A DNA stretch of 35,687 nucleotides from a virus (Duplodnaviria > Heunggongvirae > Uroviricota > Caudoviricetes): IMG/VR virus record IMGVR_UViG_2690315992_000010, one strand, 5' to 3'. The position numbers were made by a program, and so were the translations under genes. The notes under the pieces were generated by a model, which saw nothing but the letters and a program-made list of their open reading frames with translations, was not told where the DNA came from and searched no databases. Of this stretch, positions 1,447 through 35,687 are shown piece by piece (the stretch's first letter is position 1; the number at the start of each line of letters is the position of its first letter).

Positions 1447-1486
1447 GCCCCTATCGTTATAATACGCGGTAGGGGCGTTTTTGTTT
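1447..1486 (+). terminator. hairpin with T-tract between secreted-protein gene and recombinase gene
   Basis: GCCCCTA...TAGGGGC stem around a TTATAATA centre, followed by GTTTTTGTTT. Could be a terminator/attenuator or a recombinase-associated palindrome. Confidence 0.4.
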
Positions 1487-1495
1487 GGAAATGGT

Positions 1496-23092: not shown

Positions 23093-24604
23093 TTAGGGAT
23101 CGGCTGGGGAATTTTTTTCTTCACCCTCGCCATCAACGATAATATTTAGTGCGCTTTTTTCGGCTTGAATCTCTGAGAATACTTTTTCAGGATCATCACC
23201 ACGTTCCAATATAACGGCAGTACGTGATTTAAGTCCGTTATCAATTAAAGCAATCTCGGCGCTTACGTCTTTAAATGGATCGACGGATTCAAAACGCGGA
23301 CGAATAATAGTAGTGTTATCGATAATATGCGGAATTGCAGTAATACGAATCGGAACAATACCACGCGCGGAATAATGGCGTAGATATGCTTCAAAAATTG
23401 GCAATACCACTGTTTCAATTAATTTGTTTTGCAGTGCTTTAACTCGTGTGCGTTGAAGCAATTCGCCGTAGCGGGCTGCGCTGTAGTTGATCTGGCTGGT
23501 ATCACCAGTTAAGCCCTGTTTAAACACGCCTAAGCCCATTGATACGCTAGTAAACATCGCATCATTGAAGCTGTTAAAGTCATCGCCACTTTGGGCGCTC
23601 TGAATTGACTTAATCGTTGCCCCTTCCGGCAATTCCTGAATAGTACCCGGTGCAAAGTCCTGTACTACTTCCGGCGCTTGATATTGTTCATCCTCTTCAC
23701 CAGTATCAAAATCGTCACCAGAATCTTTCGGACGTTCGATAAAGCCCATAGAGCTAGCTGCAATGCGTTTCTGGATGATCGCAGTTTCGCGGAATGCATC
23801 TTGATGTGCGATATCCTTAATCACTGGCAGGAAGTCAGTCACACCACGCAGGGATTCGGCGGTAAGCGGTTGATAATAATGGCATACTTGCGAAGCATCG
23901 ACGCGATAGTTATCACCAGTGTAGGTCTGAGTCAGTAGGTTGACTTTACGAAACCAGTATGCCACGGGCTTCATCGTTTCTACGGCATACTCCACACCTT
24001 GATATATCGCACGTTCTTTGCTCACTTCACGGTTGAGAGTCCAGTCGCACTTATCAGCAGACAGGATAGAAACATTTATCTCATTGTTTTCTTTAGTTAA
24101 AACGATGAAACACTCACCACCCATAACGCGCTCACGTTCAGCCATTACCAGCAATTCACGGAAGTTAAAGCGACCGTTACGAGAGAAGCGTTTAGCATTC
24201 TGCGCCCACTTCCAGAAAGCATTCTCGATCTGCTTATTCAGTGCGCTATCAAGTTTGCCATTTGATTTAACGATTGACGGCTTCGGATCTAGGCCAGTAC
24301 CTACCACCATATCGGTGATGTATTGCGTGTATCGACTGCCTACGGAAGTGTTTAAGGCCAGAGTACGCCCCTGATCATAAAGGCGCTTACCGTTCGATTT
24401 GAGAGCCTTATTGAAGGTTCCGGTAATGGTGTCTTGTTGAAGCTGTCCATCAATGCGATCACCAACCAGACCTAAACTACGAGTCGCCAGAGATTTCTGG
24501 AATTTTTCTACTTGTTTGTCGATGAAAATTTTTGGTTGTTGTTGGCGGTGATTAGTTTTAACTGGAGTTTCTACCGCCTTTTTGCGTCGAAAAAGATTAA
24601 ACAT
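23093..24604 (-). CDS. portal protein
   Basis: 503 aa, located between terminase and capsid genes; acidic C-terminus; portal-like QINYSAARYGEL segment. Confidence 0.75.
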   Translation of the reverse strand: MFNLFRRKKAVETPVKTNHRQQQPKIFIDKQVEKFQKSLATRSLGLVGDRIDGQLQQDTITGTFNKALKSNGKRLYDQGRTLALNTSVGSRYTQYITDMVVGTGLDPKPSIVKSNGKLDSALNKQIENAFWKWAQNAKRFSRNGRFNFRELLVMAERERVMGGECFIVLTKENNEINVSILSADKCDWTLNREVSKERAIYQGVEYAVETMKPVAYWFRKVNLLTQTYTGDNYRVDASQVCHYYQPLTAESLRGVTDFLPVIKDIAHQDAFRETAIIQKRIAASSMGFIERPKDSGDDFDTGEEDEQYQAPEVVQDFAPGTIQELPEGATIKSIQSAQSGDDFNSFNDAMFTSVSMGLGVFKQGLTGDTSQINYSAARYGELLQRTRVKALQNKLIETVVLPIFEAYLRHYSARGIVPIRITAIPHIIDNTTIIRPRFESVDPFKDVSAEIALIDNGLKSRTAVILERGDDPEKVFSEIQAEKSALNIIVDGEGEEKNSPADP

Positions 24605-24614
24605 GATTTACCCC

Positions 24615-25109
24615 TTATCGCGTAAGACGTAATTTGATATTTTTAATCGGGCTAATTCCCTGTTTACGTCGTTCGGCTTGAATTAATTTTGATAACTGAC
24701 GTTCATAATCGACTTTTAGAGTCTGGAGAACAGCCAATGACTCATAGGCGAAAGTATTCCCTTTCACTGTCATTGCTGATAATGCGGCTTCGTCCCCAGA
24801 TAAACGGGCGAAAATAACTTGCTCGATTAAGGCGATAGTTTCCCGCAGATAGTCTTTTTTGGAGATTTTGGCGAATACTGGCAAAACAGTTAATTCCTGC
24901 ATTGATACCAGTTCTTCTTCCAAAGTGGTTACGATGGTATATTTACCTTCGGCAAAATCTAAGGTTTTAATCTCGTGATTAGCCGGAGTGTCATCAACCT
25001 GATAAATGATACCTTTACTATTTCCTACCTGAATTGTTACACCCTCTTCATTCGCCAGCGTGATTTTTTCACCTTTACGAATTACTAAGGGAATTAGTTC
25101 TAAACTCAT
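24615..25109 (-). CDS. hypothetical head-assembly protein (between terminase and portal)
   Basis: 164-aa ORF; synteny only. Confidence 0.4.
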   Translation of the reverse strand: MSLELIPLVIRKGEKITLANEEGVTIQVGNSKGIIYQVDDTPANHEIKTLDFAEGKYTIVTTLEEELVSMQELTVLPVFAKISKKDYLRETIALIEQVIFARLSGDEAALSAMTVKGNTFAYESLAVLQTLKVDYERQLSKLIQAERRKQGISPIKNIKLRLTR

Positions 25110-25181
25110 AATTACCCCTTATTTAATTGTTATTGGATTAACAATATTTAGGGGGAGGCCGCCCCGAAGGACGGCGAGTTA

Positions 25182-27086
25182 TTAGAACGATGTTACCCAG
25201 CTACGGCCTCTATTTGGGCGTCTGGCGATGTTTTTACGTTGTGGTCGTGTGATTGGCTTATTTTCTTCGATTTGCTCGTCAGATTGCGATTTAGGAGCTT
25301 CTACGGATTCTTCTGGTTCACGGTTCAAACTATCTTTGATGGCTTCGAGTTTTTCCCATGACATTTTATTGAGTACATGGCGATAACTAGCCACCGCATA
25401 GGTTAGGCAGTCCAAGCCCTCGTTGCGTTGCTGACCAACTTTTACCCAACGTGTGGTATTACCCTGCCGTTTCAACTGTTCAGATAGCAATTGCTCGCAG
25501 TAGTCATCAGGAACGTCACCAATCTGGAAGACCGTATGAGGATCGCTGTCTCTCAAGTTCCGGTTAATCATTTCACGGATCATCGTCTTAAGGTTGTTTA
25601 CGCCCAGAATTTTAAGGGTAAAACCGCCCGTTCTTGTGTCTTTTACCGGAAGGATTGGAGCATCAACATTACTTGCGCCCTTAATGGCGCATAGATTTTG
25701 CCACCTAGTGCAAAAGCGGTAGATCACTTGCGTAGCTCGTCCGTTTGATGAGTCCACGAAAGCGGATAGCATCGGGATTCGTTGACCGGATCGGGTATAG
25801 AATTTTGCTTTCAGGAAGTTGTAAAGCTGGTCATATGCTGGTGATTCGTGGCGTTCGCAGTTCACATCATAGAATGATCGGTGATCAACTACGCATATCC
25901 CTTTACGAGAGATACCCAGCAAGGTAGATTCCAGACGGTCTTTTTGCTGGTCAACTCCACCTACCAGAGCCAAAACATCATCAGGAATATTATCTAAGCT
26001 AATGTCAGTTTTCAGCGTTTCCAGTTCGTCGGCTGTGCGGTCTTCGTTAAGATCATCGAAGGTTTCACCGAGCACCACATTATAGAACGTTGCCAGCGAC
26101 ATATTCGCGTAGCTATCAGCAAAGTCCACCACACACGCACGGATAGAACTAAACGGAGACATAAGGCGGTTAGCATGAAAACCGATTACTTCCGCATTTG
26201 GTTCGGTGGCGACCCATTCTCCCTGAGCAACAGCACGGAGGCGATCTGGTTCTGACCAATCAGTTTCACATGACGGGCAACGGTAAACGGCTGTGTCTGG
26301 ATTCGGCAGTGATTTACCATTGATTACATGCCAATCAAAGAATACTCTACTCCATTCCATTACGTGTTTGTGTCCGCAATGCTGGCAAACGACGTGGTAT
26401 TTTCTTTTATCCGAGAGTTCCCATTGTTGGTTTATCGCCCCATCCCGCGAAGTTGGAGTAGAAGCAATTACGATCCTTGCATCATCACCGAAAGTGGTTG
26501 CGCGTTGTTCCGCTAGCTGGATCGGGTTCCCTTCGTCTGACTCATCAGCCGCATCAACTTCATCAAGAATAATCAAAGGTAGTGTTTTACCGCGAAGATG
26601 TGATGGACTATTCAACGACATGAAATACATGAATGATCCGTTACGAAGCTGAATAATCGATGAGTTGTTAACGGCATTGCGATCTGACTTGTCGGTGATC
26701 ATCGCCTTTAATTCTGGGGTTGCCTCTAATACTGGCTTCACCTTACCCGCGATCCAGCTATTCAACTCGCGGACGTTTGCTTGCAAAACACCTATATTAG
26801 TGGGGTTGCTGGCGATCCTATGAAAGATAATACCGTTTAGCACAAGAGTTTTACCCAACTGCGCCGAGCACTTTAGCACAATTTTTCGCCTATCTTCGGT
26901 GATCGCGTCCATCATCCCACGTTGGAAAGGATGCAATTTAATTAGCGATCCGGCTTTAACACCATCGGTTGCAACTACATTAGCCTCTACCCATTCGCTA
27001 GGTTTCATGGCTTTAGGTGGGCGAATTGCAGCAGAGATATTTCTGAGAATCTTTTTTAATTTTGCCTTATTAGAAATCAGTTTCAT
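25182..27086 (-). CDS. terminase large subunit (GpA family)
   Basis: 634 aa; Walker A-like KCSAQLGKT, IASTPT motif, Cys-rich zinc-finger-like segment (CQHCGH...CPSC), size similar to lambda gpA; GAGGGTAA RBS before ATG 27086. Confidence 0.8.
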   Translation of the reverse strand: MKLISNKAKLKKILRNISAAIRPPKAMKPSEWVEANVVATDGVKAGSLIKLHPFQRGMMDAITEDRRKIVLKCSAQLGKTLVLNGIIFHRIASNPTNIGVLQANVRELNSWIAGKVKPVLEATPELKAMITDKSDRNAVNNSSIIQLRNGSFMYFMSLNSPSHLRGKTLPLIILDEVDAADESDEGNPIQLAEQRATTFGDDARIVIASTPTSRDGAINQQWELSDKRKYHVVCQHCGHKHVMEWSRVFFDWHVINGKSLPNPDTAVYRCPSCETDWSEPDRLRAVAQGEWVATEPNAEVIGFHANRLMSPFSSIRACVVDFADSYANMSLATFYNVVLGETFDDLNEDRTADELETLKTDISLDNIPDDVLALVGGVDQQKDRLESTLLGISRKGICVVDHRSFYDVNCERHESPAYDQLYNFLKAKFYTRSGQRIPMLSAFVDSSNGRATQVIYRFCTRWQNLCAIKGASNVDAPILPVKDTRTGGFTLKILGVNNLKTMIREMINRNLRDSDPHTVFQIGDVPDDYCEQLLSEQLKRQGNTTRWVKVGQQRNEGLDCLTYAVASYRHVLNKMSWEKLEAIKDSLNREPEESVEAPKSQSDEQIEENKPITRPQRKNIARRPNRGRSWVTSF

Positions 27087-27129
27087 GTAATTACCCTCAT
27101 TACGAAATATGAAGGTATTTATTAAATTG

Positions 27130-27158
27130 TTGATATTTTGATAAATACGGGTATTAAG
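27130..27158 (+). promoter_or_regulatory. candidate sigma70 promoter for rightward gene 27175 (divergent from terminase)
   Basis: TTGATA - 16 bp - TATTAA upstream of AAGGGGGGG RBS. Confidence 0.3.
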
Positions 27159-27174
27159 ATTTAAGGGGGGGTGT

Positions 27175-27780
27175 ATGCTAATTAATCAGCAACAAAGAGA
27201 TGCATTAGAATTAGCCTTTTCTTGTTGTACCGATCATGAATATCGTTTGCCAGTTAAGCACCATCACAAGAAGACTGATTACACAACATCTGGCTTTAGT
27301 CGTGAGGAAGCTAAACAGATTTTAATCGAGTTGTATCGCGATCATGGGTATACCGATATTCATAACTTCTTTAAGAAGCATCGTACATCACAGACAGAGT
27401 TTAATAGAGTTCGTGAATGGTTTGATTTTGACATTAAGCGATTCTATCGAGTAGATGACGGTCCTATCTATCGGTTGCAGTGGACACCGATTAGGGAAGT
27501 GCTTAAACAGAAGAGATTGAATCATGCCATTACACGCTATCGTAATGTGGCTTTTAAGAAAGGCTATGGTGATTCAAGGGAATTGTTTGTAGAACTCGCT
27601 AACGTGCGATATAGCCACTATTACAGGAATCCTAAAGAGTTCTTCGAAGTGCTGCGCAAGGTTGATATTAGTCGGGGTACATATTATTCACGGTTGAAGA
27701 AGTACGGGATTAAGGCAGAGTTCTTTATGTCGGTTGACGATGGAGAACTTTTTCCGATAAAATGTAAGTCCTCTAAATAA
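27175..27780 (+). CDS. helix-turn-helix protein of unknown function (paralogue family member 1)
   Basis: 201 aa; contains FSREEAKQILIELYRD and C-terminal ISRGTYYSRLKKYGI segments that recur in the two small proteins at 27810 and 31471. Confidence 0.5.
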   Translation: MLINQQQRDALELAFSCCTDHEYRLPVKHHHKKTDYTTSGFSREEAKQILIELYRDHGYTDIHNFFKKHRTSQTEFNRVREWFDFDIKRFYRVDDGPIYRLQWTPIREVLKQKRLNHAITRYRNVAFKKGYGDSRELFVELANVRYSHYYRNPKEFFEVLRKVDISRGTYYSRLKKYGIKAEFFMSVDDGELFPIKCKSSK

Positions 27781-27809
27781 AGGTGAACATTCACTTTAAT
27801 TTGGAGAAA

Positions 27810-28043
27810 ATGACTATGACTACTAAAGCTACTCGCGGTCGCCCTGCCCGTTTTAACGCTGAACAGATGGCTGATATTGCCTACGCTTATTATACAGCGG
27901 ATCGTGGTAAGGAAGCGAAAGAACAGATTCTTAGTGAACATGGGATCTCAATCGCCCAATTCTATAAGAATATGAAGAAGTTGGACATTAAATTCTATGT
28001 TCAGATCGGTGATGGTCAGATCGTAGAAGCAACAGGTTTTTGA
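27810..28043 (+). CDS. small helix-turn-helix DNA-binding protein (paralogue 2)
   Basis: 77 aa from ATG 27810 (GGAG RBS); RGRPARFNAEQMADIAYAYY...ISIAQFYKNMKKLDI. Track start 27783 is GTG. Confidence 0.5.
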   Translation: MTMTTKATRGRPARFNAEQMADIAYAYYTADRGKEAKEQILSEHGISIAQFYKNMKKLDIKFYVQIGDGQIVEATGF

Positions 28044-28058
28044 GTTTTGATTCTCTTT

Positions 28059-28082
28059 GCCACTCTTCGGAGTGGCTTTTTT
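28059..28082 (+). terminator. intrinsic terminator
   Basis: GCCACTC-ttcg-GAGTGGC followed by TTTTTTG. Confidence 0.7.
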
Positions 28083-28203
28083 GTATGTAAAACAATCGGC
28101 GCAAAACTGCGCTCATTTCTAAGTTGAGTCCAAATCTGGACTGATCTATAGATGCATCCAAATCTGGAGGGATGCGCTTAAAGTTCAGCGCATCTACAGA
28201 TAC

Positions 28204-28228
28204 AAAAAAGCCCCTGAAATTCAGGGGC
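28204..28228 (-). terminator. intrinsic (bidirectional) terminator after Rha operon
   Basis: AAAAAA-GCCCCTGAA-at-TTCAGGGGC-AAAAATT; its right half is the TTCAGGGGCAAAAAT motif that forms the iteron array at 30.7-30.9 kb. Confidence 0.65.
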
Positions 28229-28236
28229 AAAAATTA

Positions 28237-29070
28237 TTACAGTCCGAAGACTTCCAGAGAGCCAGCATTCTGACGAATCAGCAAAGCAGTGTTATTAATG
28301 ATTGCTCGTGAGTTATTCGGCTGTGGCAATTTCAAAGTTGCGGCCTTTTCTTCTTCAAGCAATCCGAGTTTTACGAGATGCGGGATAGCATCAGCAGTGA
28401 ACTCGATCTGACCGTGTGCCGACATACGAGCGAACATATAGCCAGGAGGAAGCAGATCATAGCCTTTAGGCTTACCAGAAGCATCCAGACGACGCTCAAG
28501 AACACCAGCAGCACATAAACCTTTCAGAATCATTTGTACCTTCGTAGAGCCTCGTTTTTCGCCTAATAAGCGGCTAAGACTGTGTGCATCAATAGCTTTA
28601 CGGATATGAAGATCAACTAATTGTTCTTTTTCTTGAATCAGTTGTTCGTTTGCGGCTTCTAATTCCATTGCCTCACGAATCCAATCGAGCTTAGTCATGT
28701 TTGCGTATGGGTTGACTTGCTGAGAACGCAGTTTTTCATTTTCTTCTTTCAGTCGTTTCCATTCCTGAATAACAACCATTCGACGCTTAACATCGTAACC
28801 AGTGACAAGAGTCAGAGTCATTTCTTCGTCTAGTTGATATTCGTTTTGTTCGCGTCCGTATTGGTCAAAATAGATGACGCGAAACTTCGCGTGATCTTCA
28901 TAACCTAGAGCATTCAACATCTTAGTTATATCAACTTTAACTTTGTGGTGTTCTTTTCCGGTAAATTCAGCGATCTGACGAGAAGACATGGTCAGTGGTT
29001 TGGTGTTATCAACAACCAGAGACACGGAAGCAGTTTTAACAGCAGTATTCATAGTAGTAACAGTATTCAT
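28237..29070 (-). CDS. Rha-family phage regulatory protein / antirepressor
   Basis: N-terminal LTMSSRQIAEFTGKEHHKVKVDI matches the Rha-domain signature; ~150-aa C-terminal antirepressor-like domain. Confidence 0.65.
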   Translation of the reverse strand: MNTVTTMNTAVKTASVSLVVDNTKPLTMSSRQIAEFTGKEHHKVKVDITKMLNALGYEDHAKFRVIYFDQYGREQNEYQLDEEMTLTLVTGYDVKRRMVVIQEWKRLKEENEKLRSQQVNPYANMTKLDWIREAMELEAANEQLIQEKEQLVDLHIRKAIDAHSLSRLLGEKRGSTKVQMILKGLCAAGVLERRLDASGKPKGYDLLPPGYMFARMSAHGQIEFTADAIPHLVKLGLLEEEKAATLKLPQPNNSRAIINNTALLIRQNAGSLEVFGL

Positions 29071-29159
29071 AGTAAAAATTCCCCTTAAACGGTTTAGTGA
29101 TTTGGTCCTCCTAGTTCCGGCATCTCAACCGGAACAATTTTATTTATGATAGAAATTTA

Positions 29160-29492
29160 TTACCAATCGATTTCTACTTGGTCTTCTTCATAATAAGGAA
29201 TCGCATATTCATAACGCCAATTTTCGATGATTTCACGTTCTTCATTAGTAAGAAGGTGATTGTTAACTGGAGTCGCATTGTGATTACCAGCTTCGAATTG
29301 CTCGCGAACTTCCAGCATTGCATGAATACCAGTTAAGGTCATCAGATCAAACGGAACATGCATACTACGGGAGATAGTTTCACGGGATACACCCCAATCA
29401 TTTTCTACATGGCTAGGGGTTACAGAAACGGTTTTGCCGGAGATTTTAACAGTCCAGTCATACAGGGATTTAGTGATGGTAAATTCTTTCAT
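29160..29492 (-). CDS. hypothetical protein
   Basis: 110-aa ORF with AGAGGA RBS, first gene downstream of promoter at 29549-29577. Confidence 0.5.
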   Translation of the reverse strand: MKEFTITKSLYDWTVKISGKTVSVTPSHVENDWGVSRETISRSMHVPFDLMTLTGIHAMLEVREQFEAGNHNATPVNNHLLTNEEREIIENWRYEYAIPYYEEDQVEIDW

Positions 29493-29548
29493 GTTACATC
29501 CTCTTTACAAATCTAGGTCAAATAGGTTCAAAGTTGTCAAGCGCGATA

Positions 29549-29577
29549 ATCATAAAAAAGTCAGAAATTTTTGTCAA
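29549..29577 (-). promoter_or_regulatory. candidate sigma70 promoter (leftward) overlapped by palindromic operator
   Basis: Minus-strand -35 TTGACA (29577-29572), 17-bp spacer, -10 TATGAT (29554-29549). Palindrome TTGTCAA-tacccc-TTGACAA at 29571-29590 overlaps the -35. Confidence 0.4.
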
Positions 29578-29612
29578 TACCCCTTGACAAGACGCCAAAG
29601 GGTTGACCTAAC

Positions 29613-30071
29613 TTACAGCATATCTAAGCCTTCATCGTAACCGTAGAAGCCACCGTGAGAAGAGAAAGCGATTGGTGCGTAGTCTTCGTCTTCCTCATCT
29701 TGTTCTGGGGCTTCCTGAGCGGTTTCTTTACCGTAATTAAACATTGCTTCATCCAGTTCACGAAGAGTCAAGAAGCTACCCAGGTCAATGTCACCGGAAC
29801 GGACTTGAAACGGCAGATCATCACGAACAATAATTGCTGGTAGATTCTGGTACTTTAAGCGTTCTTCATCGGTGAAGACGTTAACAACAATGGTCGGCTT
29901 CTTATTACGGCAAAACGCATACCATGCACTAGAGAAATGGGATTCATCAGAGTTGAAAAGGATGTTATAACCACGTTCACGGAACATCTTCATTAACTTG
30001 TCATTGTGGAAGCTATCAGAATCCAGACCCAGAAGGATAAAAGGAGTAGTGGTAGTCATCTTGTGGTTCAT
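29613..30071 (-). CDS. hypothetical protein with acidic C-terminal tail
   Basis: 152 aa, GAGGA RBS; C-terminus EAPEQDEEDEDYAP; no domain recognised. Confidence 0.5.
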   Translation of the reverse strand: MNHKMTTTTPFILLGLDSDSFHNDKLMKMFRERGYNILFNSDESHFSSAWYAFCRNKKPTIVVNVFTDEERLKYQNLPAIIVRDDLPFQVRSGDIDLGSFLTLRELDEAMFNYGKETAQEAPEQDEEDEDYAPIAFSSHGGFYGYDEGLDML

Positions 30072-30713
30072 AGTGGAAATCCTCTAAAAGAAAGTGAATC
30101 AAACAAATTACACTAGTATTTATAACGAGAATTTTTTATCTATTTGGAAGGGATTGGTATTCAGTCGGGCATAGCCCTCCTTCATAGATTTTGATTAAAT
30201 CATCATCAAAACGAAGAAGTATCTTTAGAATATAAGAATCTTTCTTTCGAAGAAAGAATAATCAGGAAGCAATTTCAGCAACCGCAGGTTGCGATCCCGA
30301 AGGGATAACCAATACCTTTCTAGAAAGTGATTGTTACTCACTTCGTTCGTTTACTAGAATCAGTTATCATCTAGTATTAAAATCCCTTTCTAAGAAAATC
30401 CTTTCAAAAGTGATTCTCGATGCCACGCAGTGGCGTCGCAGACGTTTGAGAGTGAGCGAAGCGAGCGAGCAAACTAGTTAATTCCTTCTAAGACCATCTA
30501 GTATCATCTAGTTTAAATTAGTTGTTACTAGAAGTAATTGGTTAGCGCTACGCGCAGTCGGGCAAAGCCCTCCTAATATCTTTTTGGTTATTTTTGGTTT
30601 TACACATGAGCGTAGCGAATGTGTTATATAATATCTATGCACGCCCGATTCCCCGTTTTTACCCCTCACTAAGTTAATGTTTTATAAAGAGTTTTTCTTA
30701 CCAATCCTTTTCG

Positions 30714-30906
30714 GGGGCAAATTTCAGGGGCAAAAATTAGATTTTAAGGGGCAATTATTGGCATTTCAGGGGCAAAAATGAGGGGCAAAATCACTGTTTC
30801 CCAGAATTTCAGGGGCAAAAATAGTGGGTTTCAGGGGCAAAAATGGGATAGTGGAATCTTGGGTATTTTGGTTCGGGGGCAAAATTCAGAATTTCAGGGG
30901 CAATTC
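30714..30906. repeat. array of ~9 direct GGGGCAA(A/T) iterons (5 copies of full TTTCAGGGGCAAAAAT)
   Basis: Core starts near 30715, 30727, 30749, 30770, 30782, 30811, 30832, 30876, 30897; spacings mostly 12 or 21 bp; non-coding. Confidence 0.6.
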
Positions 30907-30993
30907 CCATCAAATATTTTGATAGAAAATTCTTGTATATTATTTAATCAAAAAATCACCAAAAAGTGGCGTAAGTTAATGATTTAAAAAGAA

Positions 30994-31019
30994 TTGTCAA
31001 AAGGTCTCCGTGCTATAAT
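30994..31019 (+). promoter_or_regulatory. candidate extended -10 promoter (rightward)
   Basis: TTGTCAA at 30994-31000 and TGcTATAAT at 31011-31019. Confidence 0.35.
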
Positions 31020-31099
31020 AGGTTATAAAGGTTGATAATCCTGATCTACCATTTTCAAACAAAAATTTTGATAGTCATTTCTCGCTTAGGTCAAGTGTA

Positions 31100-31128
31100 T
31101 TGACAACTGTCAAGGATTATTTTATACT
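31100..31128 (+). promoter_or_regulatory. candidate strong sigma70 promoter (rightward) with palindromic -35 region
   Basis: TTGACA (31100-31105), 17-bp spacer, TATACT (31123-31128); -35 lies in palindrome TTGACAACTGTCAA. Confidence 0.5.
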
Positions 31129-31263
31129 TTTTCTCACTGGTGGGGGTTGAAATTTTCTAAACAGTCCCCATATAGATGATAAGCAAGAATTTCCACGTTA
31201 TAAATACATGTGTGAAATGATTGTTCACTTCTGAAAATCTCCTGATCCACTGCTAATTCATAC

Positions 31264-31291
31264 AGCACTGGTTAGATATACAGTGCTTTTT
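31264..31291 (+). terminator. intrinsic terminator-like hairpin (possible end of a ~160-nt small RNA)
   Basis: AGCACTG-gttagatata-CAGTGCT followed by TTTT. Confidence 0.4.
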
Positions 31292-31415
31292 CGGTTGAAT
31301 ATTGTACGAATTGATTAATAATTAATCTTCTCTTTAGCAATTCGTGCTCCCACTGATCGGATATACAGTGGTTTTACAGGGTTTTCTGAAAATCATTTTA
31401 TAAATACAAGTGTTC

Positions 31416-31436
31416 AGAGCGAAATGCTCTTTTTTA
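31416..31436 (+). terminator. attenuator hairpin immediately upstream of gene 31471
   Basis: AGAGC-gaaat-GCTCT followed by TTTTTT. Confidence 0.45.
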
Positions 31437-31470
31437 AGAAATTATTAATCCACATGTGAGGAATCGACTG

Positions 31471-31650
31471 ATGGCTAGACCTGTTAAGTTCACTCGTGAA
31501 ATGATTGTTGATATTGCTAAACGCTTTTACAGCGACACTGAGCGAGGCGGGGAAAACTTCTTTAAGAAGGAAGGAATTGATAGAAGCGGATTCTACAAGC
31601 TAATGAAGAAATACGAAATTCAGGTAAAGATTAACGTTCAAGTTTGTTAA
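31471..31650 (+). CDS. small helix-turn-helix DNA-binding protein (paralogue 3)
   Basis: 59 aa from ATG 31471 (GAGGA RBS); ARPVKFTREMIVDIAKRFY...IDRSGFYKLMKKYEI parallels the 27810 protein. Track start 31456 is GTG. Confidence 0.5.
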   Translation: MARPVKFTREMIVDIAKRFYSDTERGGENFFKKEGIDRSGFYKLMKKYEIQVKINVQVC

Positions 31651-31765
31651 TCCACTTTCACTGAGAATTATATGATGGCTTTAAAAAAAGAAAAAGCCTC
31701 CCTTGTTGCAGCAAAGGAGGCTTGAAATGAACAATTAAAACTAACTTTCTACAGGAGTATTTATA

Positions 31766-32710
31766 ATGTTATTTTCCGCTAACTTTTTCACTAACGAAGT
31801 AACCAACGCTAAAGCAGTTATCAAATTTGGCACCGAAGCAAACAAGAAGATTCAGCCGAAAGTTGTTGTTCATGTTTCCTTTGCGCAGCAGAAATCCGCT
31901 TTCGCTGGCTTTAAAGCACATCGTGAAGCACTGATCGCGGCTGGCTTTGGTGTTGACGGTAAACTGCCTAACGGCATTCGTAAAGCAATCGACCGCGTTA
32001 AACCTGCTAAAGACGTTGCAGTAGACCACATCGTTACTTTCACCGTTAAGAACTCTTCTGAACTGTTCCACCTAGTGATTGCTGGTGATACTGCTATCGT
32101 TTCCGCTCCTAACATGGATTTTCAGGATACCGCTGATTGCAACATTACCTTTGGTCGTCGTAAAGAAGTTACCGGAAAAGCTAAACTGAACTTCACCAAA
32201 TCCGGCAATCCTTACTTTGCTGTATTCTTTAACAGCCACGCTACTGAGAAAGAAGTAGTAGAACTGGTTGCATATGAAGGTGAAGAAAAAGCACGTATTG
32301 AATCTTGCGACGCTTTCGTAGAACTGGAAGCACAGGTTAATGCTGTTTCTCCGGTTGCTGTTGAAGATCGTTTCTCTGCACTGGAAGCACAGATCGCAGA
32401 ACTGAAAGCTGCGCTGGAAGAAAAAGACCAGATCATCGAAGCACAGAAAGCTGAGATTGAAGAACTGAAAGCTAAAGAAGTTGCTCCGGTGGCAGTAGTT
32501 GAAAATGCGGCTGATGAGGCCGCAAATGATGAAGTAGAAGTGAAAATCGATGTGATGCGTGATCCGATGGCTGCACTGCAATTGCTTCGTTCTTTTAAGG
32601 GCAAATCTCATTTTTCTAGTGATGCGGTAGACGAGGAAGAAGAACAGAAACGCAATGTTGCAATGCTTCATGATGAAATGTACGGTACTAACTTTTCTTA
32701 CTGCCAATAA
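31766..32710 (+). CDS. hypothetical protein, apparently highly expressed (N-terminal globular part, C-terminal Ala/Glu-rich coiled-coil-like region)
   Basis: 314 aa; consensus AGGAG RBS 8 nt before ATG; codon usage strongly skewed to CTG/CGT/GGT/GAA/AAA/GCT; bracketed by terminators. No family recognised. Confidence 0.6.
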   Translation: MLFSANFFTNEVTNAKAVIKFGTEANKKIQPKVVVHVSFAQQKSAFAGFKAHREALIAAGFGVDGKLPNGIRKAIDRVKPAKDVAVDHIVTFTVKNSSELFHLVIAGDTAIVSAPNMDFQDTADCNITFGRRKEVTGKAKLNFTKSGNPYFAVFFNSHATEKEVVELVAYEGEEKARIESCDAFVELEAQVNAVSPVAVEDRFSALEAQIAELKAALEEKDQIIEAQKAEIEELKAKEVAPVAVVENAADEAANDEVEVKIDVMRDPMAALQLLRSFKGKSHFSSDAVDEEEEQKRNVAMLHDEMYGTNFSYCQ

Positions 32711-32714
32711 AAAA

Positions 32715-32732
32715 GGGACTCCGAAGAGTCCC
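32715..32732. terminator. bidirectional intrinsic terminator
   Basis: AAAAAA-GGGACTC-cgaa-GAGTCCC-TAGTAAGTTT; stronger T-tract on minus strand. Confidence 0.55.
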
Positions 32733-32806
32733 TAGTAAGTTTAGGTTAGGTTTGCACAACAAAGATGAACATAATGCTACATTATTCTTTAAAGCCAGAA
32801 AAATAA

Positions 32807-32824
32807 CCGCCTCTTTCGAGGCGG
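32807..32824 (-). terminator. intrinsic terminator (minus strand)
   Basis: CCGCCT-ctttcg-AGGCGG with minus-strand T-tract (TTATTTTTCT). Confidence 0.5.
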
Positions 32825-32981
32825 GAGGATTAATACTCAATCTATACTTGTTATGTTTTTATGTTGTATAGATCCTGACTATGAAAACACTGTACTGGAG
32901 TGTGTTTTATGGCTTTTAATCGGGAATCCTCAAAGAAGATCCCCTGTTAATAACCATAAGGAGAAAAGGCAGATTACACTA

Positions 32982-33155
32982 TTATTTAGTATCCTTTTTA
33001 CAGCAACTAAAAAGAATAAACAAAAAGAAGCATACCCAGCCGTAAGGCGTACCGATTAGAAATTTGAAAAACACCACCAGCGATATAAAAATCAATTTAA
33101 TGCCAGCGACGATAGTCAAAAACAGCAGAGTAGCAAAGTAGACAAAAAGATCCAT
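32982..33155 (-). CDS. small hydrophobic membrane protein, ~57 aa (two predicted TM segments)
   Basis: ATG ~33155 with AGAGGA RBS; MDLFVYFATLLFLTIVAGIKLIFISLVVFFKFLIGTPYGWVCFFLFILF...; not in ORF track. Confidence 0.25.
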   Translation of the reverse strand: MDLFVYFATLLFLTIVAGIKLIFISLVVFFKFLIGTPYGWVCFFLFILFSCCKKDTK

Positions 33156-33208
33156 AGATAATCCTCTTTGAAAACGACCATCATCTATAGTTCAATTCAT
33201 CGATTTAA

Positions 33209-33310
33209 TTAATTATACTTGAAAGCGTTACACAAAGTAGAAATGCCAATATGTGCCAGTGAATATACGATAGTTAATCCTACAGCCAGATAAATCAAAA
33301 ATTCAACCAT
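33209..33310 (-). CDS. small hydrophobic peptide, ~33 aa
   Basis: ATG ~33310 with GAGGA RBS; MVEFLIYLAVGLTIVYSLAHIGISTLCNAFKYN; not in ORF track. Confidence 0.2.
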   Translation of the reverse strand: MVEFLIYLAVGLTIVYSLAHIGISTLCNAFKYN

Positions 33311-33408
33311 AGGTAAATCCTCAAATAAGAAAAAGGTTAGCGGGGGATGTTCTCCCCCGTAGGCGTTGACCCATTCAACACCCTTCACATATATTTAGTA
33401 TCTAATTT

Positions 33409-33966
33409 TTACGACACATCAAATTCATCATCTTCTTCTGGTTCTTGTTCTTCCGGTTCATCCATTAATGGTAATTCTTCTTCCTCGTCTTCTCCCAAAT
33501 CTGCATTTTCGAACAAGTCCCCTACTTCATTTAAACGACGCTCGATGATCTCCCTTAGCTTATTCTTCAATGTTTTCTGGTCAGTTGCAGATTCGAGAAT
33601 TTCTAAAGCGTCGATTGTGGCGATCTGCAAAATAGTCTGTTTCACTTTCCCGCAGTATTCCGCTAGTTGCTGTTCTACATAACCGACAGGAATCAGGAGA
33701 TTCATTTTTTCCTGGTTCTCTCGTTCGGCTGCATCTGCCATTGCTCTTTCTCTGCGGAGACGTTCTTGATCAATCGCTTCTTTGATTGAAGTTTGTTTAA
33801 GTGGGTTAATTACGTTCTTTAGCACCCAATCGCAACCTTCCTTTGCTGGAACACGCCTCTTATTGGTATTGTAAGGTAGTCCCCTTTCTAACCATCGCTT
33901 ACCGCCACCATTCAATGTATAACCATATAAACGGGAAATTTCTGTAAGGGTTAATTCTTCTTTCAT
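33409..33966 (-). CDS. terminase small subunit (Nu1-like) candidate
   Basis: N-terminal HTH segment LTLTEISRLYGYTLNGGGKRWLERGLPY resembles the Nu1 DNA-binding domain pattern; central coiled-coil; strongly acidic C-terminus; GGAGGA RBS; palindromes and GC-rich site just upstream. Confidence 0.5.
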   Translation of the reverse strand: MKEELTLTEISRLYGYTLNGGGKRWLERGLPYNTNKRRVPAKEGCDWVLKNVINPLKQTSIKEAIDQERLRRERAMADAAERENQEKMNLLIPVGYVEQQLAEYCGKVKQTILQIATIDALEILESATDQKTLKNKLREIIERRLNEVGDLFENADLGEDEEEELPLMDEPEEQEPEEDDEFDVS

Positions 33967-33984
33967 TGGTTATCCTCCATTAAA

Positions 33985-34043
33985 TTTGCGTAATTTTATT
34001 TATTGGTTTTACGCAAAATCTAAGCGCCTAAAACGCGTTTTAG
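33985..34043. promoter_or_regulatory. palindromic protein-binding sites upstream of small terminase gene (cosB-like candidates)
   Basis: Inverted repeat TTTGCGTAA-N15-TTACGCAAA (33985-34017) and perfect 16-bp palindrome CTAAAACGCGTTTTAG (34028-34043). Confidence 0.4.
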
Positions 34044-34090
34044 CGAAGGGAAAGATCCAGTAATGGTAAGGGTTAGGAAGGGGGTTAATA

Positions 34091-34109
34091 GTCGCGTAGC
34101 GACCGCGCC
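34091..34109. other. candidate cos nicking region (GC-rich island with dyad symmetry)
   Basis: GTCGCGTAGCGACCGCGCC in AT-rich context ~125-145 bp upstream of the Nu1-like start, the position expected for cosN in lambda-like genomes. Inference only. Confidence 0.25.
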
Positions 34110-34324
34110 ATGAGTGAAGTGATCACGTTTTAAAATCTCACACGCACATCAAATACCGGGGTGCCGAAAACTCCCTTTATTTCATCCGTGGAACAGTACC
34201 TTTTTAATTTGTCAAGCATTAATTTCTTAATTTAATTACTAAATCTCATCCCAATAATTGAAAAAATATCAAAAATCAATAAAGTAAGCATCTAAAAGTC
34301 AGTCCATACCAAAAGAGGTATAAA

Positions 34325-35104
34325 ATGAAAAACATTATCGCTGCTATCGTGCTTTCTGCTACTGCTTTCGGTGCTGATGCTGCGTCCTTTGATTGCACTA
34401 AGGCTACTACCAAATCAGAGAAGTTTATTTGTGCTAACGAGTCTATCTCCGCACTGGATTCGAAACTTCATGAAGTATATGTTAAAGCTGTTAAGATTGA
34501 TCCATCTCTGAAACAAGAGCAACGCAACTGGAATAAAACTGTTCGTGATACAATGATCAATATCGGGCAGATTCAGCCACTGGAGGCTGTATACAACGCT
34601 CAAATCCAAAACTTGATGAATGTATTATCTAAAGAAGAAACCGCGTCAGAGAGCGATTCAGAGACTTCTGCGAAGGTTGAAGAAGAACAACCGAAACAGG
34701 AAGAAGTAAAGAAACTGAATGTTACCGCGATTTACGCATGTACTACAAAATTTACATGGAAAGTTATCGATGGTGAGGAAACAGAAGCTGTAAAAGATAA
34801 ACTCTACGGAAACAAAACTTTTGATAATAACGGCGGTAAACTTAAGATCAAAATGGTAGACGATGTTCCGGTATCTTTTGTGTATTCCGACAAGTATGAT
34901 GTTTATAAATCAAGTCTCAAGCCATCTAAAGAGAATCCAAACGCAATGGAAGGTAAATCCAAACAGGATACTATTGGACGTGTTAACACTTATAACATCT
35001 GGGTAAGCAAAAAAGGTGACATGCGTCTTGAAGTAATTGAACCAAAATTTGATTCTGAATATAAACACACTCAATTTGCATGTGACATGGTAGACGCAGA
35101 GTAA
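34325..35104 (+). CDS. secreted protein with DUF1311 / LprI-like N-terminal domain
   Basis: Signal peptide MKNIIAAIVLSATAFGADA; SFDCTKATTKSEKFICANESISALDSKLHEVY matches the conserved Cys-containing DUF1311 signature; AGAGG RBS. Confidence 0.55.
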   Translation: MKNIIAAIVLSATAFGADAASFDCTKATTKSEKFICANESISALDSKLHEVYVKAVKIDPSLKQEQRNWNKTVRDTMINIGQIQPLEAVYNAQIQNLMNVLSKEETASESDSETSAKVEEEQPKQEEVKKLNVTAIYACTTKFTWKVIDGEETEAVKDKLYGNKTFDNNGGKLKIKMVDDVPVSFVYSDKYDVYKSSLKPSKENPNAMEGKSKQDTIGRVNTYNIWVSKKGDMRLEVIEPKFDSEYKHTQFACDMVDAE

Positions 35105-35336
35105 GAGGTGAAATGATGCAATTCAATAGCATGAAGATTACTCAAAAATGGTGGGATGCGATGAAAGCTAACCACCAGAACGATATTAATTAAGTAACAT
35201 TTTAGATATACAGCACCCAGCTAACAGATCACCTTTTATGGATTTCATTATAACCCCTTTGATCTGGAAACTATGTTAATTAGTTGATTTCTAAGCCTTG
35301 TCCTTGTGATGGGGCTTTTTATTGCAAAATTTTTAG

Positions 35337-35687
35337 TTATTTTGGGTTGACTACATTCGGGTTGCCAATTCGCCAGGCTAACTCTTGCTGAGTGATTTCT
35401 GACTGTAAAAAAGCATTTAACAGCAATACTTTAGAGGCGACGCTCAAAGGTACTTCAATAAAGTGATCATGACTATTTAATGGCGAAGGTAACGGGATAA
35501 GCTCGTTATCTTCAAAATAAAAATCAAATGCGGTCAGTAAAGCATCTTTTGCCGCTTCCATCGCTTCAGCGACAGTTTCGCCCTGCGTCAACGCTTCAGG
35601 GATATCCACAAAAGAAACCATATAACCGCCTTCCGGCGCGGGTGTAAGAGTGACGGGATAACGCATAATTTCGACTGTCTCTCGCAT
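35337..35687 (-). CDS. hicB: HicB-family antitoxin, N-terminal domain only; C-terminal DNA-binding domain apparently truncated at junction with phage-like DNA
   Basis: MRYPVTLTPAPEGGYMVSFVDIPEALTQGETVAEAMEAAKDALLTAF... recognised as HicB N-terminal domain (recalled as near-identical to E. coli HicB; not verified). ORF ends ...ITQQELAWRIGNPNVVNPK* inside what should be the first helix of the HTH. Base composition and codon usage look more host-like here. Confidence 0.55.
   Translation of the reverse strand: MRETVEIMRYPVTLTPAPEGGYMVSFVDIPEALTQGETVAEAMEAAKDALLTAFDFYFEDNELIPLPSPLNSHDHFIEVPLSVASKVLLLNAFLQSEITQQELAWRIGNPNVVNPK

What the first reader, a model, noticed from the sequence alone, without database searches (positions are those of the whole stretch)
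27087..33408. Small and large terminase genes split by a ~6.3 kb regulatory/accessory island
The GpA-type large terminase (25182-27086) and the Nu1-like small terminase candidate (33409-33966) are both minus-strand but lie in separate transcription units. Intrinsic terminators sit at 32715-32824 and 28204-28228, and plus-strand genes run divergently from the large terminase start. In lambda-like phages the two terminase genes are normally adjacent and co-transcribed, so this island looks like an insertion or a lineage-specific arrangement.
Basis: partly seen in the sequence, partly recalled or inferred. Interest (0 to 1): 0.7.

Follow-up and report, generated by a model that had tools for sequence, protein, structure and literature searches.

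The report
Phage terminase genes kept apart
In this E. coli prophage and a whole clade of its relatives, the two genes of the DNA-packaging enzyme, which are normally side by side, lie 4-8 kb apart with the phage's regulatory and probable replication-origin region between them; this is a real, inherited and moderately unusual gene order, not a new kind of system.

Summary

- **Element:** the window is one complete ~35.3 kb prophage inserted in hicB.
- **Large terminase:** 25182-27086(-) is a GpA-type large terminase.
- **Small terminase:** 33409-33966(-) is a divergent full-length homologue of lambda gpNu1 (hhalign 99.2%, 145 columns). It is the only Nu1-like ORF in the prophage.
- **Separation:** 6.3 kb lie between the two genes, holding at least five transcription units on both strands and five canonical intrinsic terminators.
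- **Conservation:** 38 relatives with both genes in view (TerS down to 37% identity, TerL down to 45%) all show a 4.3-8.5 kb split. They form one clade in the TerL tree, which includes 32 of them. The sister clade (13 loci) and lambda have terS abutting terL. The split is therefore old and lineage-specific, not a recent insertion.
- **Nature of the island:** it is mainly the phage's early region, with HTH regulators, a Rha protein and an iteron array. The iteron type co-varies perfectly with the unlinked 314-aa gene, so this is probably an origin with its initiator. The island also tolerates cargo: mcr-1 Tn6330 in one strain and a reverse transcriptase in another.
- **Unresolved:** the cos site was not located, and how the two terminase genes are co-regulated is inferred only.

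This is a new variant of a known kind, of modest interest.

The parts
25182..27086 (-). Large terminase subunit (TerL), lambda gpA type; first gene of the long minus-strand structural operon (head-tail joining protein 24615-25109, lambda-family portal 23093-24604, protease-capsid fusion 21037-23046, and onward)
   Evidence: Pfam GpA_ATPase 1.4e-59 and GpA_nuclease 8.6e-45. Portal Phage_portal_2 1.1e-61 and capsid Phage_capsid plus Peptidase_S78. phrog_5774 head-tail joining for 24615-25109.
27087..27174 (.). 88-bp divergent intergenic region between terL and the 201-aa gene; the presumed late-operon control region (inferred)
   Evidence: 93-100% conserved in 22 close relatives, even where TerL itself is only 55-59% identical. 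No consensus sigma-70 promoter was found there.
27175..28043 (+). Two-gene plus-strand unit divergent from terL: a 201-aa protein (27175-27780) and an 86-aa HTH-like protein (27783-28043; the true start may be 27810 or 27816)
   Evidence: ORFs; annotated in RefSeq relatives; conserved at protein level in 24 loci. The 86-aa protein, the 64-aa protein and the C-terminus of the 201-aa protein are paralogous. No family hit.
28059..28086 (+). Intrinsic terminator ending the 201/86-aa unit
   Evidence: -13.0 kcal/mol, z -4.8.
28200..28228 (-). Intrinsic terminator ending the Rha unit, 1.1 kb upstream of terL; its stem is a palindromic copy of the iteron core TTCAGGGGC
   Evidence: -15.2 kcal/mol, z -4.4.
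28237..30071 (-). Minus-strand early genes: 152 aa (29613-30071), 110 aa (29160-29492) and a Rha-family regulator or anti-repressor (28237-29070); a promoter-like site at 29577-29549 matches 11 of 12 consensus positions
   Evidence: Pfam Phage_pRha 2.8e-11; PHROG anti-repressor families at 1e-14 to 3e-17; promoter scan.
30072..31455 (.). 1.4-kb non-coding divergent region. It holds 8 in-phase copies of TTYMRGGGGCAAW at 30709-30904 (13/21/22/42/43-bp spacing), a 24% GC block at 30900-30999, and a strong promoter-like site at 31100-31128(+) over the palindrome TTGACAACTGTCAA. Probable replication origin plus early promoters (inferred).
   Evidence: (11 matches in the window against 0.5 expected; 8 lie here). 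Mosaic segment structure in relatives. The iteron type co-varies with the 314-aa gene.
31456..32710 (+). Plus-strand unit: a 64-aa HTH-like protein (31456-31650) and a 314-aa protein (31766-32710). The latter has an N-terminal domain, a coiled coil and an acidic tail, and is the candidate iteron-binding initiator.
   Evidence: ORFs. No family. The 314-aa gene is present in all 10 related loci with type-A iterons, as in the window, and absent from all 11 type-B loci.
31685..31723 (-). Strong minus-strand intrinsic terminator inside the plus-strand unit; it blocks antisense transcription coming from the terS side
   Evidence: -19.0 kcal/mol, z -4.0.
32704..32824 (-). Two tandem minus-strand intrinsic terminators (32824-32807 and 32733-32714) that end the terS unit
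   Evidence: -14.6 and -14.1 kcal/mol.
32982..33310 (-). Two small hydrophobic ORFs downstream of terS in the same unit (33310-33209, 33 aa; 33155-32982, 57 aa). Function unknown. This position is variable in relatives, which carry a 94-aa ORF there instead.
33409..33966 (-). Small terminase subunit (TerS), a divergent gpNu1 homologue. It has an N-terminal winged HTH, long helices and a conserved acidic C-terminal tail ending EEDDEFDVS.
   Evidence: phrog_57 at 6.9e-11. hhalign to lambda Nu1 at 94% and at 99.2% over 145 columns with the deeper profile. Weak PDB profile hits to TerS DNA-binding domains 6hn7, 1j9i and 7lw0. Homologues hit Phage_Nu1. It is the only such ORF in the window. AF2 secondary structure.
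33967..34216 (-). About 250 bp of conserved non-coding block immediately upstream of terS. It contains an invariant GC-rich dyad GCGCGGTCGCTACGCGAC and a conserved TGCGTA-N17-TACGCA palindrome. It is a candidate terS control region and/or cos site (unproven).
   Evidence: 81-98% identical in 19 relatives whatever lies further upstream (LprI gene, ycdX, other). The palindrome is kept in L028, where TerS is 52% identical.

Best explanation
**What it is.** The window is a complete temperate phage of about 35.3 kb, integrated in hicB by a large serine recombinase. Its packaging enzyme is lambda-like: a gpNu1-type small subunit (33409-33966) and a gpA-type large subunit (25182-27086). The two genes are unlinked.

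**Layout.**
- terS is the outermost phage gene next to the attachment site. It forms a short transcription unit of its own: a conserved 250-bp upstream block, terS, two small ORFs and two tandem terminators.
- terL heads the ~23-kb structural and lysis operon. That operon starts from an 88-bp control region shared with a divergent regulator-like gene.
- The 6.3 kb between them is the phage's early region. It holds small HTH regulators, a Rha-type protein and a non-coding region with an iteron array. The iteron sequence type is inherited together with the 314-aa protein, so this is most probably the replication origin and its initiator.

**How it most likely works.** TerS and TerL are made from separate transcripts and assemble in trans. 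Assembly presumably uses the conserved acidic C-terminal tail of TerS, as Nu1 and gpA do.

**History.** The arrangement arose once in an ancestor of a clade of Enterobacterales phages and has been kept since. One consequence is that terL alleles can be exchanged independently of terS.

**Shown:** gene identities, the layout, the terminators, conservation across the clade, and the iteron-protein co-variation.

**Inferred:** separate promoters and their timing, assembly in trans, the origin function, and the position of cos.
For: - **Element boundaries and recombinase:**
- **TerL family:**
- **TerS homology:**
- **Single Nu1-like ORF per genome:**
- **Split conserved.** The gap is 4.3-8.5 kb in all 38 related loci that show both genes (L006-L030, L033-L040, L042, L044-L046). 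TerS abuts or overlaps terL in all 13 loci of the sister group (L047-L059).
- **Single origin.** In an NJ tree of TerL rooted on lambda gpA, the 33 split genomes with near-full-length TerL (the window plus 32 loci) form one clade.
- **Two integration sites.** The same layout occurs at hicB and ycdX. It is present in 63 of 5426 complete E. coli genomes.
- **Separate transcription units.** The three on the minus strand between terS and the origin region would stop a terS transcript.
- **Origin and initiator.** There are 8 in-phase iterons against 0.5 motif matches expected in the whole window, next to a 24% GC block. Type-A iterons occur with the 314-aa gene in all 10 related loci that have them, as in the window. 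Type-B iterons occur with an unrelated 328-341-aa gene in all 11 loci that have them. TerS identity does not track iteron type.
- **Independent assortment of terL.** Two TerL alleles (93-98% and 55-59% identical to the window's) occur with the same TerS tail ...EEDDEFDVS.
Against: - The window protein itself does not reach any Pfam or NCBIfam model. Its assignment rests on PHROG and profile-profile matches.
- Its AF2 model is only moderate (pLDDT 70, pTM 0.32), and the fold search gave no significant hit.
- No consensus sigma-70 promoter was found upstream of either terS or terL, so separate promoters are inferred from layout, not seen.
- The cos site was not located.
- No replication protein of a known family is present, and the 314-aa protein could not be modelled (pLDDT 43).
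- No cultured, characterised phage of this clade exists in the phage collection. The best TerL match is 43% identical, in a record that looks chimeric. Activity of the element is therefore unproven.
Confidence: 0.8

Rival explanations
1. Terminator read-through. terS and terL are still co-transcribed. A late transcript starts in the conserved block upstream of terS and, with an antiterminator, reads through the tandem terminators and the whole island (antisense to the plus-strand early genes) into terL, as lambda's Q-modified pR' transcript reads through terminators.
For: - Both genes are on the same strand.
- No consensus promoter is seen in the 88 bp upstream of terL.
- The block upstream of terS starts with a conserved TTGACA.
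- Tandem terminators are typical targets of antitermination (established knowledge of lambda Q and N).
Against: - A transcript would have to pass four strong minus-strand terminators (32824, 32733, 31723, 28228).
- It would also collide with two convergent plus-strand units.
- No Q-, N- or put-like element was detected.
- In relative L034 most of the gap is filled by opposite-strand genes, including a reverse transcriptase.
- The terL-proximal 88 bp are conserved as a unit with a divergent regulator-like gene, which is the usual signature of a local promoter.
Confidence: 0.1
2. The 185-aa protein is a Nu1-like DNA-binding protein with another job, such as a directionality factor for the neighbouring serine recombinase or a transcription regulator. 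The real small terminase would then be an unrecognised gene next to terL, such as the 86-aa or 201-aa HTH protein.
For: - The gene lies next to the attachment site, across from the recombinase.
- The Nu1 N-terminal fold is shared with MerR regulators and excisionases: 20 of 61 homologues also touch phrog_66 'excisionase and transcriptional regulator', and fold-search hits include Xis and RdfS.
- The HTH genes 27175-28043 are the nearest neighbours of terL.
Against: - Homology to gpNu1 covers 145 columns. It includes the helical region behind the HTH, not only the DNA-binding domain.
- All 61 homologues hit the TerS PHROG.
- In the sister clade the homologue overlaps terL in the canonical position, up to 7 kb from the recombinase.
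- There is exactly one such gene per genome.
- The conserved acidic C-terminal tail is kept across both TerL alleles.
- The 201/86-aa genes are on the opposite strand and are replaced by unrelated genes in more distant split-clade members.
Confidence: 0.07
3. Recent insertion or a degenerate prophage. A mobile or accessory island landed inside a canonical terS-terL operon in this strain, or the element is a rearranged, dead remnant.
For: - The island has lower GC (35-42%) than terL (47%).
- It does accept mobile DNA: Tn6330 with mcr-1 in strain PE15 and IS elements in other strains.
Against: - The split is present in all 38 related loci examined, down to 37% TerS and 45% TerL identity, in several genera and at different integration sites.
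- All ORFs are intact.
- The island carries the only regulatory and origin-like functions of the element, so it cannot be dispensable cargo.
Confidence: 0.03

Closest known systems
Bacteriophage lambda terminase (nu1-A operon with cos immediately upstream)
   Same: - The same two protein families. TerL has both gpA domains, and TerS is a full-length gpNu1 homologue.
- The portal is of the lambda family, and a head-tail joining gene sits between terL and the portal gene.
- A conserved non-coding block of ~250 bp precedes terS, similar in size to the 190 bp between cosN and nu1 in lambda.
   Different: - In lambda nu1 overlaps A and the two are co-transcribed. Here they are 6.3 kb apart, in separate terminator-bounded units, with the early region between them.
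- TerS is too divergent to reach Pfam Phage_Nu1 on its own.
- cos is not identified.
- Integration uses a large serine recombinase, not a tyrosine integrase.
P2-like phages (terminase genes M and P in divergent late operons; my own knowledge, not tested here)
   Same: A precedent for small and large terminase genes that are not adjacent and not co-transcribed, yet are co-regulated and assemble in trans.
   Different: - In P2 the two genes are about 2 kb apart, both inside the late structural cluster, with only capsid and scaffold genes between them.
- Here the whole early, regulatory and origin region lies between them, and both genes point the same way.
- No homology with P2 was tested.
Sister clade of uncultured Enterobacterales phages (IMG/VR loci L047-L059)
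   Same: Homologous TerS (28-34% identity), TerL (36-42%) and portal; at least one locus has a serine recombinase.
   Different: terS abuts or overlaps terL in all 13 loci. The early region lies upstream of terS instead of between the two genes.
Iteron-type replication origins with cognate initiator (lambda O/ori, iteron plasmids; established knowledge)
   Same: - Eight direct repeats in helical phase (about 21-22 bp), flanked by an AT-rich block.
- The repeat type is exchanged among relatives together with one protein-coding gene, as with O/ori specificity types in lambdoid phages.
   Different: - The candidate initiator (314 aa) belongs to no known Rep, O or DnaA-like family.
- Its gene lies ~860 bp from the iterons, with another gene and a recombining segment in between.
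- Function is untested. A partition site or an operator array is not excluded.

Membership tests
gpNu1-type terminase small subunit (Pfam PF07471 Phage_Nu1 / PHROG 57) | Sequence membership in the curated family model | tested here: not met
   The window protein has no Pfam or NCBIfam hit at E <= 0.1. It does match phrog_57 at 6.9e-11, and 29 of 61 of its profile-detected homologues hit PF07471, best 9e-28. It is therefore a divergent relative at superfamily level, not a member by Pfam's own threshold.
gpNu1-type terminase small subunit (Pfam PF07471 Phage_Nu1 / PHROG 57) | Homology to gpNu1 beyond the HTH (N-terminal winged HTH plus helical self-association region) | tested here: met
   hhalign of the 61-sequence profile against lambda Nu1 gives 99.2% probability and E 1.9e-19, with residues 4-151 aligned to Nu1 2-165. 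PDB profile hits to the Nu1 DNA-binding domain 1j9i and to TerS 6hn7 and 7lw0 are weak, E 0.08-0.6. The AF2 model has HTH-like helices at 7-13 and 21-27, then long helices at 41-153.
gpNu1-type terminase small subunit (Pfam PF07471 Phage_Nu1 / PHROG 57) | Gene immediately upstream of, and co-oriented with, a gpA-type terL | tested here: not met
   The gene is 6.3 kb from terL here and 4.3-8.5 kb away in 38 relatives. This feature is met only by the homologues in the sister clade, 13 of 13.
gpNu1-type terminase small subunit (Pfam PF07471 Phage_Nu1 / PHROG 57) | Binds cosB and recruits TerL through its C-terminal segment | not testable with these tools
   Only indirect evidence: a conserved acidic tail ...EEDDEFDVS, and conserved repeats and a palindrome upstream of the gene.
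gpA-type terminase large subunit (PF05876 + PF20454) | N-terminal GpA ATPase domain and C-terminal GpA endonuclease domain above the gathering scores | tested here: met
   202.2 bits against a cut-off of 25.6, and 153.6 bits against 22.5. RefSeq names the orthologues 'terminase gpA endonuclease subunit'.
Large serine recombinase prophage | Resolvase, Recombinase and Zn_ribbon_recom domains; the element is bounded by the two halves of one host gene | tested here: met
   Pfam on 1481-3175. hicB fragments are annotated at both ends of the element in strain PD23. A ycdX fragment is annotated at the terS end of the prophage in another strain.
Iteron-type replication origin | Clustered direct repeats in helical phase next to an AT-rich stretch | tested here: met
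   Eight copies on one strand in 196 bp, against 0.5 motif matches expected in the whole window. GC is 24% at 30900-30999.
Iteron-type replication origin | Cognate initiator of a known Rep/O family that binds the iterons and drives replication | tested here: inconclusive
   Co-inheritance of iteron type and the 314-aa gene is perfect: all 10 type-A loci carry it, as the window does, and none of the 11 type-B loci do. The protein has no known family, and the structure prediction failed. Binding and replication were not testable.

The most novel reading that the evidence does not exclude
In this clade the DNA-recognition half of the packaging system (terS plus a cos site in the conserved block just upstream of it) has been moved next to attP, to the far side of the early region from terL.

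- Virion and prophage maps would then be almost collinear.
- TerS would be made from its own, possibly early or separately controlled, transcript, so that TerS supply rather than late-operon transcription sets when and on which DNA packaging starts.
- terL would be free to be swapped between lineages, as the two 55-59%-identical alleles paired with one TerS suggest.
Probability: 0.2. Interest if true: 0.55.

Novelty: new variant of a known kind. Interest (0 to 1): 0.4.

Why it matters
- **Annotation.** Small terminase genes are usually found by looking next to the large one. This clade shows that the rule fails for a whole lineage of lambda-like Enterobacterales prophages. The gene is labelled 'hypothetical protein' in all the RefSeq E. 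coli matches listed, so automatic annotation, cos/pac prediction and transduction-risk assessment will miss it.
- **A natural experiment.** One TerS works with two TerL alleles that are only 55-59% identical, which could help define the TerS-TerL interface.
- **Cargo.** The gap between the two genes is a permissive site. It carries mcr-1 in one pig isolate and defence genes in relatives. If these prophages are inducible, they are vehicles for such genes.

None of this changes the understanding of how terminases work.

Tried and rejected
- **Iterons as TerS binding sites (cosB).** Rejected. Iteron type does not follow TerS identity but follows the 314-aa gene perfectly.
- **A second, hidden Nu1-like gene near terL.** None was found in any frame at E <= 1.
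- **Fold search with the TerS model.** No significant hit (best E 1.9). The elongated helical model has pTM 0.32. MerR, BldC and Xis-type HTH proteins appear, but only at noise level.
- **Single-sequence AF2 of the 314-aa protein.** Unusable, pLDDT 43. Its homologue search returned only near-identical 'hypothetical' proteins.
- **Rfam and tRNA scans of the island.** Nothing near threshold and no tRNA.
- **Genome-contig scan for TerS relatives.** Nothing confirmed.
- **Locating cos.**
  - Conservation analysis gives two candidate blocks, upstream of terS and upstream of terL, but cannot choose between them.
  - A 35,485-bp Logan contig ends 388 bp upstream of terS. That is about the distance of the prophage end in the ycdX-integrated relative (~365 bp), so I read the contig end as the attachment site, not cos.
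- **Escherichia phage DCP80 (PQ671644).** It holds the closest TerL in the phage collection (43%). Its TerS-like gene lies 22 kb downstream, after the lysis genes. The record joins a 26-kb module of this phage type to T4-like genes and looks chimeric, so I did not use it as synteny evidence.
- **Shared late-promoter motif upstream of terS and terL.** The search was abandoned after start codons in distant loci could not be fixed reliably.
- **Literature searches.** No description of this prophage group or of this gene order was found.

Full report
**What the window is.** The window is essentially one whole prophage. Close relatives in complete E. coli genomes are bounded by the two halves of hicB. 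The 5' part of hicB is the ORF at 35337-35687(-). From the RefSeq annotation of the hicB fragment, the junction lies at about 35,36x. In strain PD23 the first prophage ORF, which corresponds to the first ORF of the window, lies ~40 bp from the other hicB fragment.

From left to right the element carries:
- a large serine recombinase at 1481-3175(+), with Resolvase, Recombinase and Zn_ribbon_recom domains;
- an M15 endolysin;
- a long minus-strand tail and head operon;
- a protease-capsid fusion;
- a lambda-family portal;
- a head-tail joining protein;
- at the head of that operon, a GpA-type large terminase at 25182-27086.

Everything that is not structure, lysis or integration lies between 27087 and about 35.3 kb.

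**The observation.**
- Two plus-strand genes (201 aa and 86 aa) start 88 bp from the terL start and end at a plus-strand terminator.
- A convergent minus-strand terminator at 28228-28210 closes a minus-strand unit of three genes (152 aa, 110 aa, Rha-family).
- A 1.4-kb non-coding region follows.
- Next is a plus-strand unit (64 aa, 314 aa) with a strong minus-strand terminator inside it.
- Two tandem minus-strand terminators lie at 32824-32807 and 32733-32714.
- Two small hydrophobic ORFs come next, then the 185-aa ORF at 33409-33966(-).

Terminator-like sites are enriched (18 against 7.0 +/- 2.5). The five main hairpins fold at -13 to -19 kcal/mol with z-scores of -3.2 to -4.8.

**Is the 185-aa protein the small terminase?**
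- It has no Pfam or NCBIfam hit of its own, but it matches PHROG 57 'terminase small subunit' almost end to end (6.9e-11).
- Its close family is confined to E. coli, Salmonella and Proteus and is mostly unnamed.
- An exhaustive profile search reached 198 proteins. Of 61 that I aligned, all hit PHROG 57, 29 hit Pfam Phage_Nu1 and 7 hit DUF1441.
- The 61-sequence profile, headed by the window protein, aligns to lambda gpNu1 over 145 columns (residues 4-151 against 2-165) at 99.2% probability. A shallower profile gave 94%.
- The predicted secondary structure fits Nu1 architecture: short HTH helices, a small strand, long helices and a disordered acidic tail. The fold search itself was uninformative.
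- A family HMM run against every ORF of 40 aa or more, in six frames, finds exactly one hit in the window and one hit in 53 of the 54 related loci. In L026 the single gene is split in two.

**Comparison with relatives, the decisive test.** A scan of IMG/VR with the family alignment gave 54 loci. I located TerL, portal and the island genes in them by tblastn.
- In every locus with TerS at 37% identity or more that shows both genes (38 loci), terL starts 4.3-8.5 kb downstream of terS on the same strand.
- In the 13 loci with TerS at 28-34% identity, terS abuts or overlaps terL, as in lambda.
- In a neighbour-joining tree of TerL rooted on lambda gpA, the 33 split genomes with near-full-length TerL (the window plus 32 loci) form one clade. 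The adjacent ones form its sister group.
- The same split is seen in E. coli prophages inserted in ycdX instead of hicB. The terS block is present in 63 of 5426 complete E. coli genomes.
- Relatives occur in Hafnia, Citrobacter, Rahnella, Serratia, Pantoea, Proteus and Salmonella.

The split is therefore a single, old, stably inherited rearrangement. The adjacency of homologues in the sister clade independently confirms that this protein family is the partner of gpA-type TerL.

**What the island is.** It is not a foreign insertion. It is the only place where the element has regulatory functions.
- It holds a Rha-family or anti-repressor-like protein.
- It holds three paralogous small HTH-like domains, in the 86-aa protein, the 64-aa protein and the C-terminus of the 201-aa protein.
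- It holds the two best sigma-70-like promoters of the region. One of them (31100-31128, +) lies over the perfect palindrome TTGACAACTGTCAA.

The non-coding region carries eight in-phase copies of TTYMRGGGGCAAW within 196 bp, where 0.5 matches are expected in the whole window. A 24% GC block follows.

Among close relatives the array comes in at least three sequence types at the same position. All 10 related loci with type A carry the 314-aa gene, as the window does. All 11 loci with type B carry an unrelated 328-341-aa gene plus an 80-aa gene instead. Type C comes with yet other genes. This linkage holds although the iteron segment and the gene are separated by a segment that recombines independently.

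TerS identity does not follow iteron type. The iterons are therefore not terminase sites. They are most probably an origin with its specificity-matched initiator, as with O/ori types in lambdoid phages. More distant split-clade loci also have repeat arrays inside the gap (L028, L036, L042).

The gap also accepts cargo. A reverse transcriptase lies in the gap of L034, and a TIR-domain gene lies just upstream of its terS. The mcr-1 transposon Tn6330 lies between the 314-aa gene and terS in strain PE15.

**How it most likely works.** terS has its own ribosome-binding site and a 250-bp upstream block. This block is 81-98% conserved whatever lies beyond it, and its TGCGTA-N17-TACGCA palindrome survives at 52% TerS identity. 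The unit ends at two tandem terminators.

terL has a separately conserved 88-bp upstream region shared with a divergent gene. That region stays 93-100% identical even where TerL is replaced by an allele only 55-59% identical.

I infer two independently initiated transcripts and assembly of the holoenzyme in trans. The TerS C-terminal tail (...EEDDEFDVS) is identical across both TerL alleles, which fits a conserved docking motif. No consensus promoter was found at either site, so activator dependence is likely, but the activator is unidentified. Read-through by antitermination is the main alternative, and I rate it at about 0.1.

The cos site could not be located. The conserved block upstream of terS is the best candidate by analogy with lambda.

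**Comparison with known systems and novelty.** The proteins are ordinary lambda-type terminase subunits. Unlinked terminase genes have a precedent in P2-like phages (my own knowledge). There, however, the genes are about 2 kb apart within the late cluster. Here the entire early and origin region separates them.

No cultured phage of this clade is in the phage collection. The best TerL match is 43%, in a record that appears chimeric. I found no paper describing the arrangement.

I classify it as a new variant of a known kind. It is useful for annotation and as a natural TerS/TerL mix-and-match system, but not surprising at the level of mechanism.

Noticed in passing
window 30709-30904 and 31766-32710; loci L006-L029: The iteron array exists in at least three sequence types (TTCAGGGGCAAA, CCTACACTA, GATGTACAAG) at the same position in relatives. 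Each type is strictly co-inherited with a different, mutually unrelated ~310-370-aa gene about 0.9 kb away. The 314-aa protein has no known family and may be a new type of iteron-binding initiator.
   Followed up: yes
window 25182-27086; loci L006-L029: TerL occurs as two alleles (93-98% and 55-59% identical to the window's) on otherwise ~90-95% identical backbones. The recombination boundaries are the conserved 94 bp upstream and the last ~35 codons of terL. TerS and its C-terminal tail are the same with both alleles.
   Followed up: partly
window 34319-34705 (5' part of the LprI-family gene 34325-35104): About 385 nt are 95-97% identical to a hypothetical gene of virulent RB49-like T-even phages (Krischvirus and relatives; 59 phage records). 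This is the only near-identical match of the 24000-35687 stretch to any sequenced phage. It indicates recent exchange of this moron between a temperate prophage and lytic phages. Some relatives lack the gene.
   Followed up: partly
window 35337-35687 and the left end of the window: The prophage splits hicB, the antitoxin gene of the hicAB toxin-antitoxin pair. hicA and the N-terminal ~100 codons of hicB stay intact next to the prophage, so the antitoxin loses its C-terminal part. A relative integrates in ycdX instead. The fragment of the disrupted host gene next to terS (hicB here, ycdX there) reads toward terS.
   Followed up: partly
L063 (E. coli PE15, NZ_CP041628) 8590-13243, equivalent to window ~32.8-33.3 kb: The composite transposon ISApl1-mcr-1-pap2-ISApl1 (Tn6330, colistin resistance) is inserted between the 314-aa gene and terS of a closely related prophage. 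Strain HeN100 also has mcr-1 and IS elements in this region.
   Followed up: partly
L034 4925-5821 and 7187-8956: A more distant split-clade relative carries a TIR-domain (CAP12/Pycsar effector type) gene just upstream of terS and a reverse transcriptase gene between terS and terL. These are likely anti-phage defence cargo.
   Followed up: partly
L003 (Escherichia phage DCP80, PQ671644) 1-26300: This record is classified as a T4-like Gaprivervirus (141 kb). It begins with a 26-kb module of this prophage type (TerL 43% identical, portal, capsid, tail, endolysin, then a TerS-like gene), directly joined to T4-like genes. It is probably a chimeric assembly. Its first 1.3 kb is non-coding and shares short motifs with window 30336-30621.
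   Followed up: partly
window 28210-28228: The stem of the terminator hairpin after the Rha gene, GCCCCTGAAATTCAGGGGC, is an inverted pair of the iteron core TTCAGGGGC. It could double as a binding site for the iteron-binding protein.
   Followed up: no
window 27565-27780, 27783-28043, 31456-31650: Three paralogous HTH-like domains occur in the C-terminus of the 201-aa protein, the 86-aa protein and the 64-aa protein (for example F/YYK.MKK..I). The 64-aa and 86-aa genes each occur as several alleles among relatives. These may be the repressor and Cro-like pair of the phage. No classical CI-type repressor was found.
   Followed up: partly
window 31100-31113 and 29514-29541: The best promoter-like site of the region overlaps a perfect palindrome, TTGACAACTGTCAA. 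A related 28-bp element sits next to the other strong promoter-like site upstream of the 110-aa gene. They look like operators of one regulator.
   Followed up: no
window 30150-30650: The conserved left part of the non-coding region is rich in short GC hairpins with tetraloop-like loops, and has a duplicated CAGTCGGGCAWAGCCCTCCT element. No Rfam family matched (best E 0.18). It could be a structured leader or a small RNA.
   Followed up: partly
window 32982-33310: Two very hydrophobic small ORFs (33 and 57 aa) are co-oriented with terS and lie between it and its terminators. Relatives have an unrelated 94-aa ORF there.
   Followed up: no
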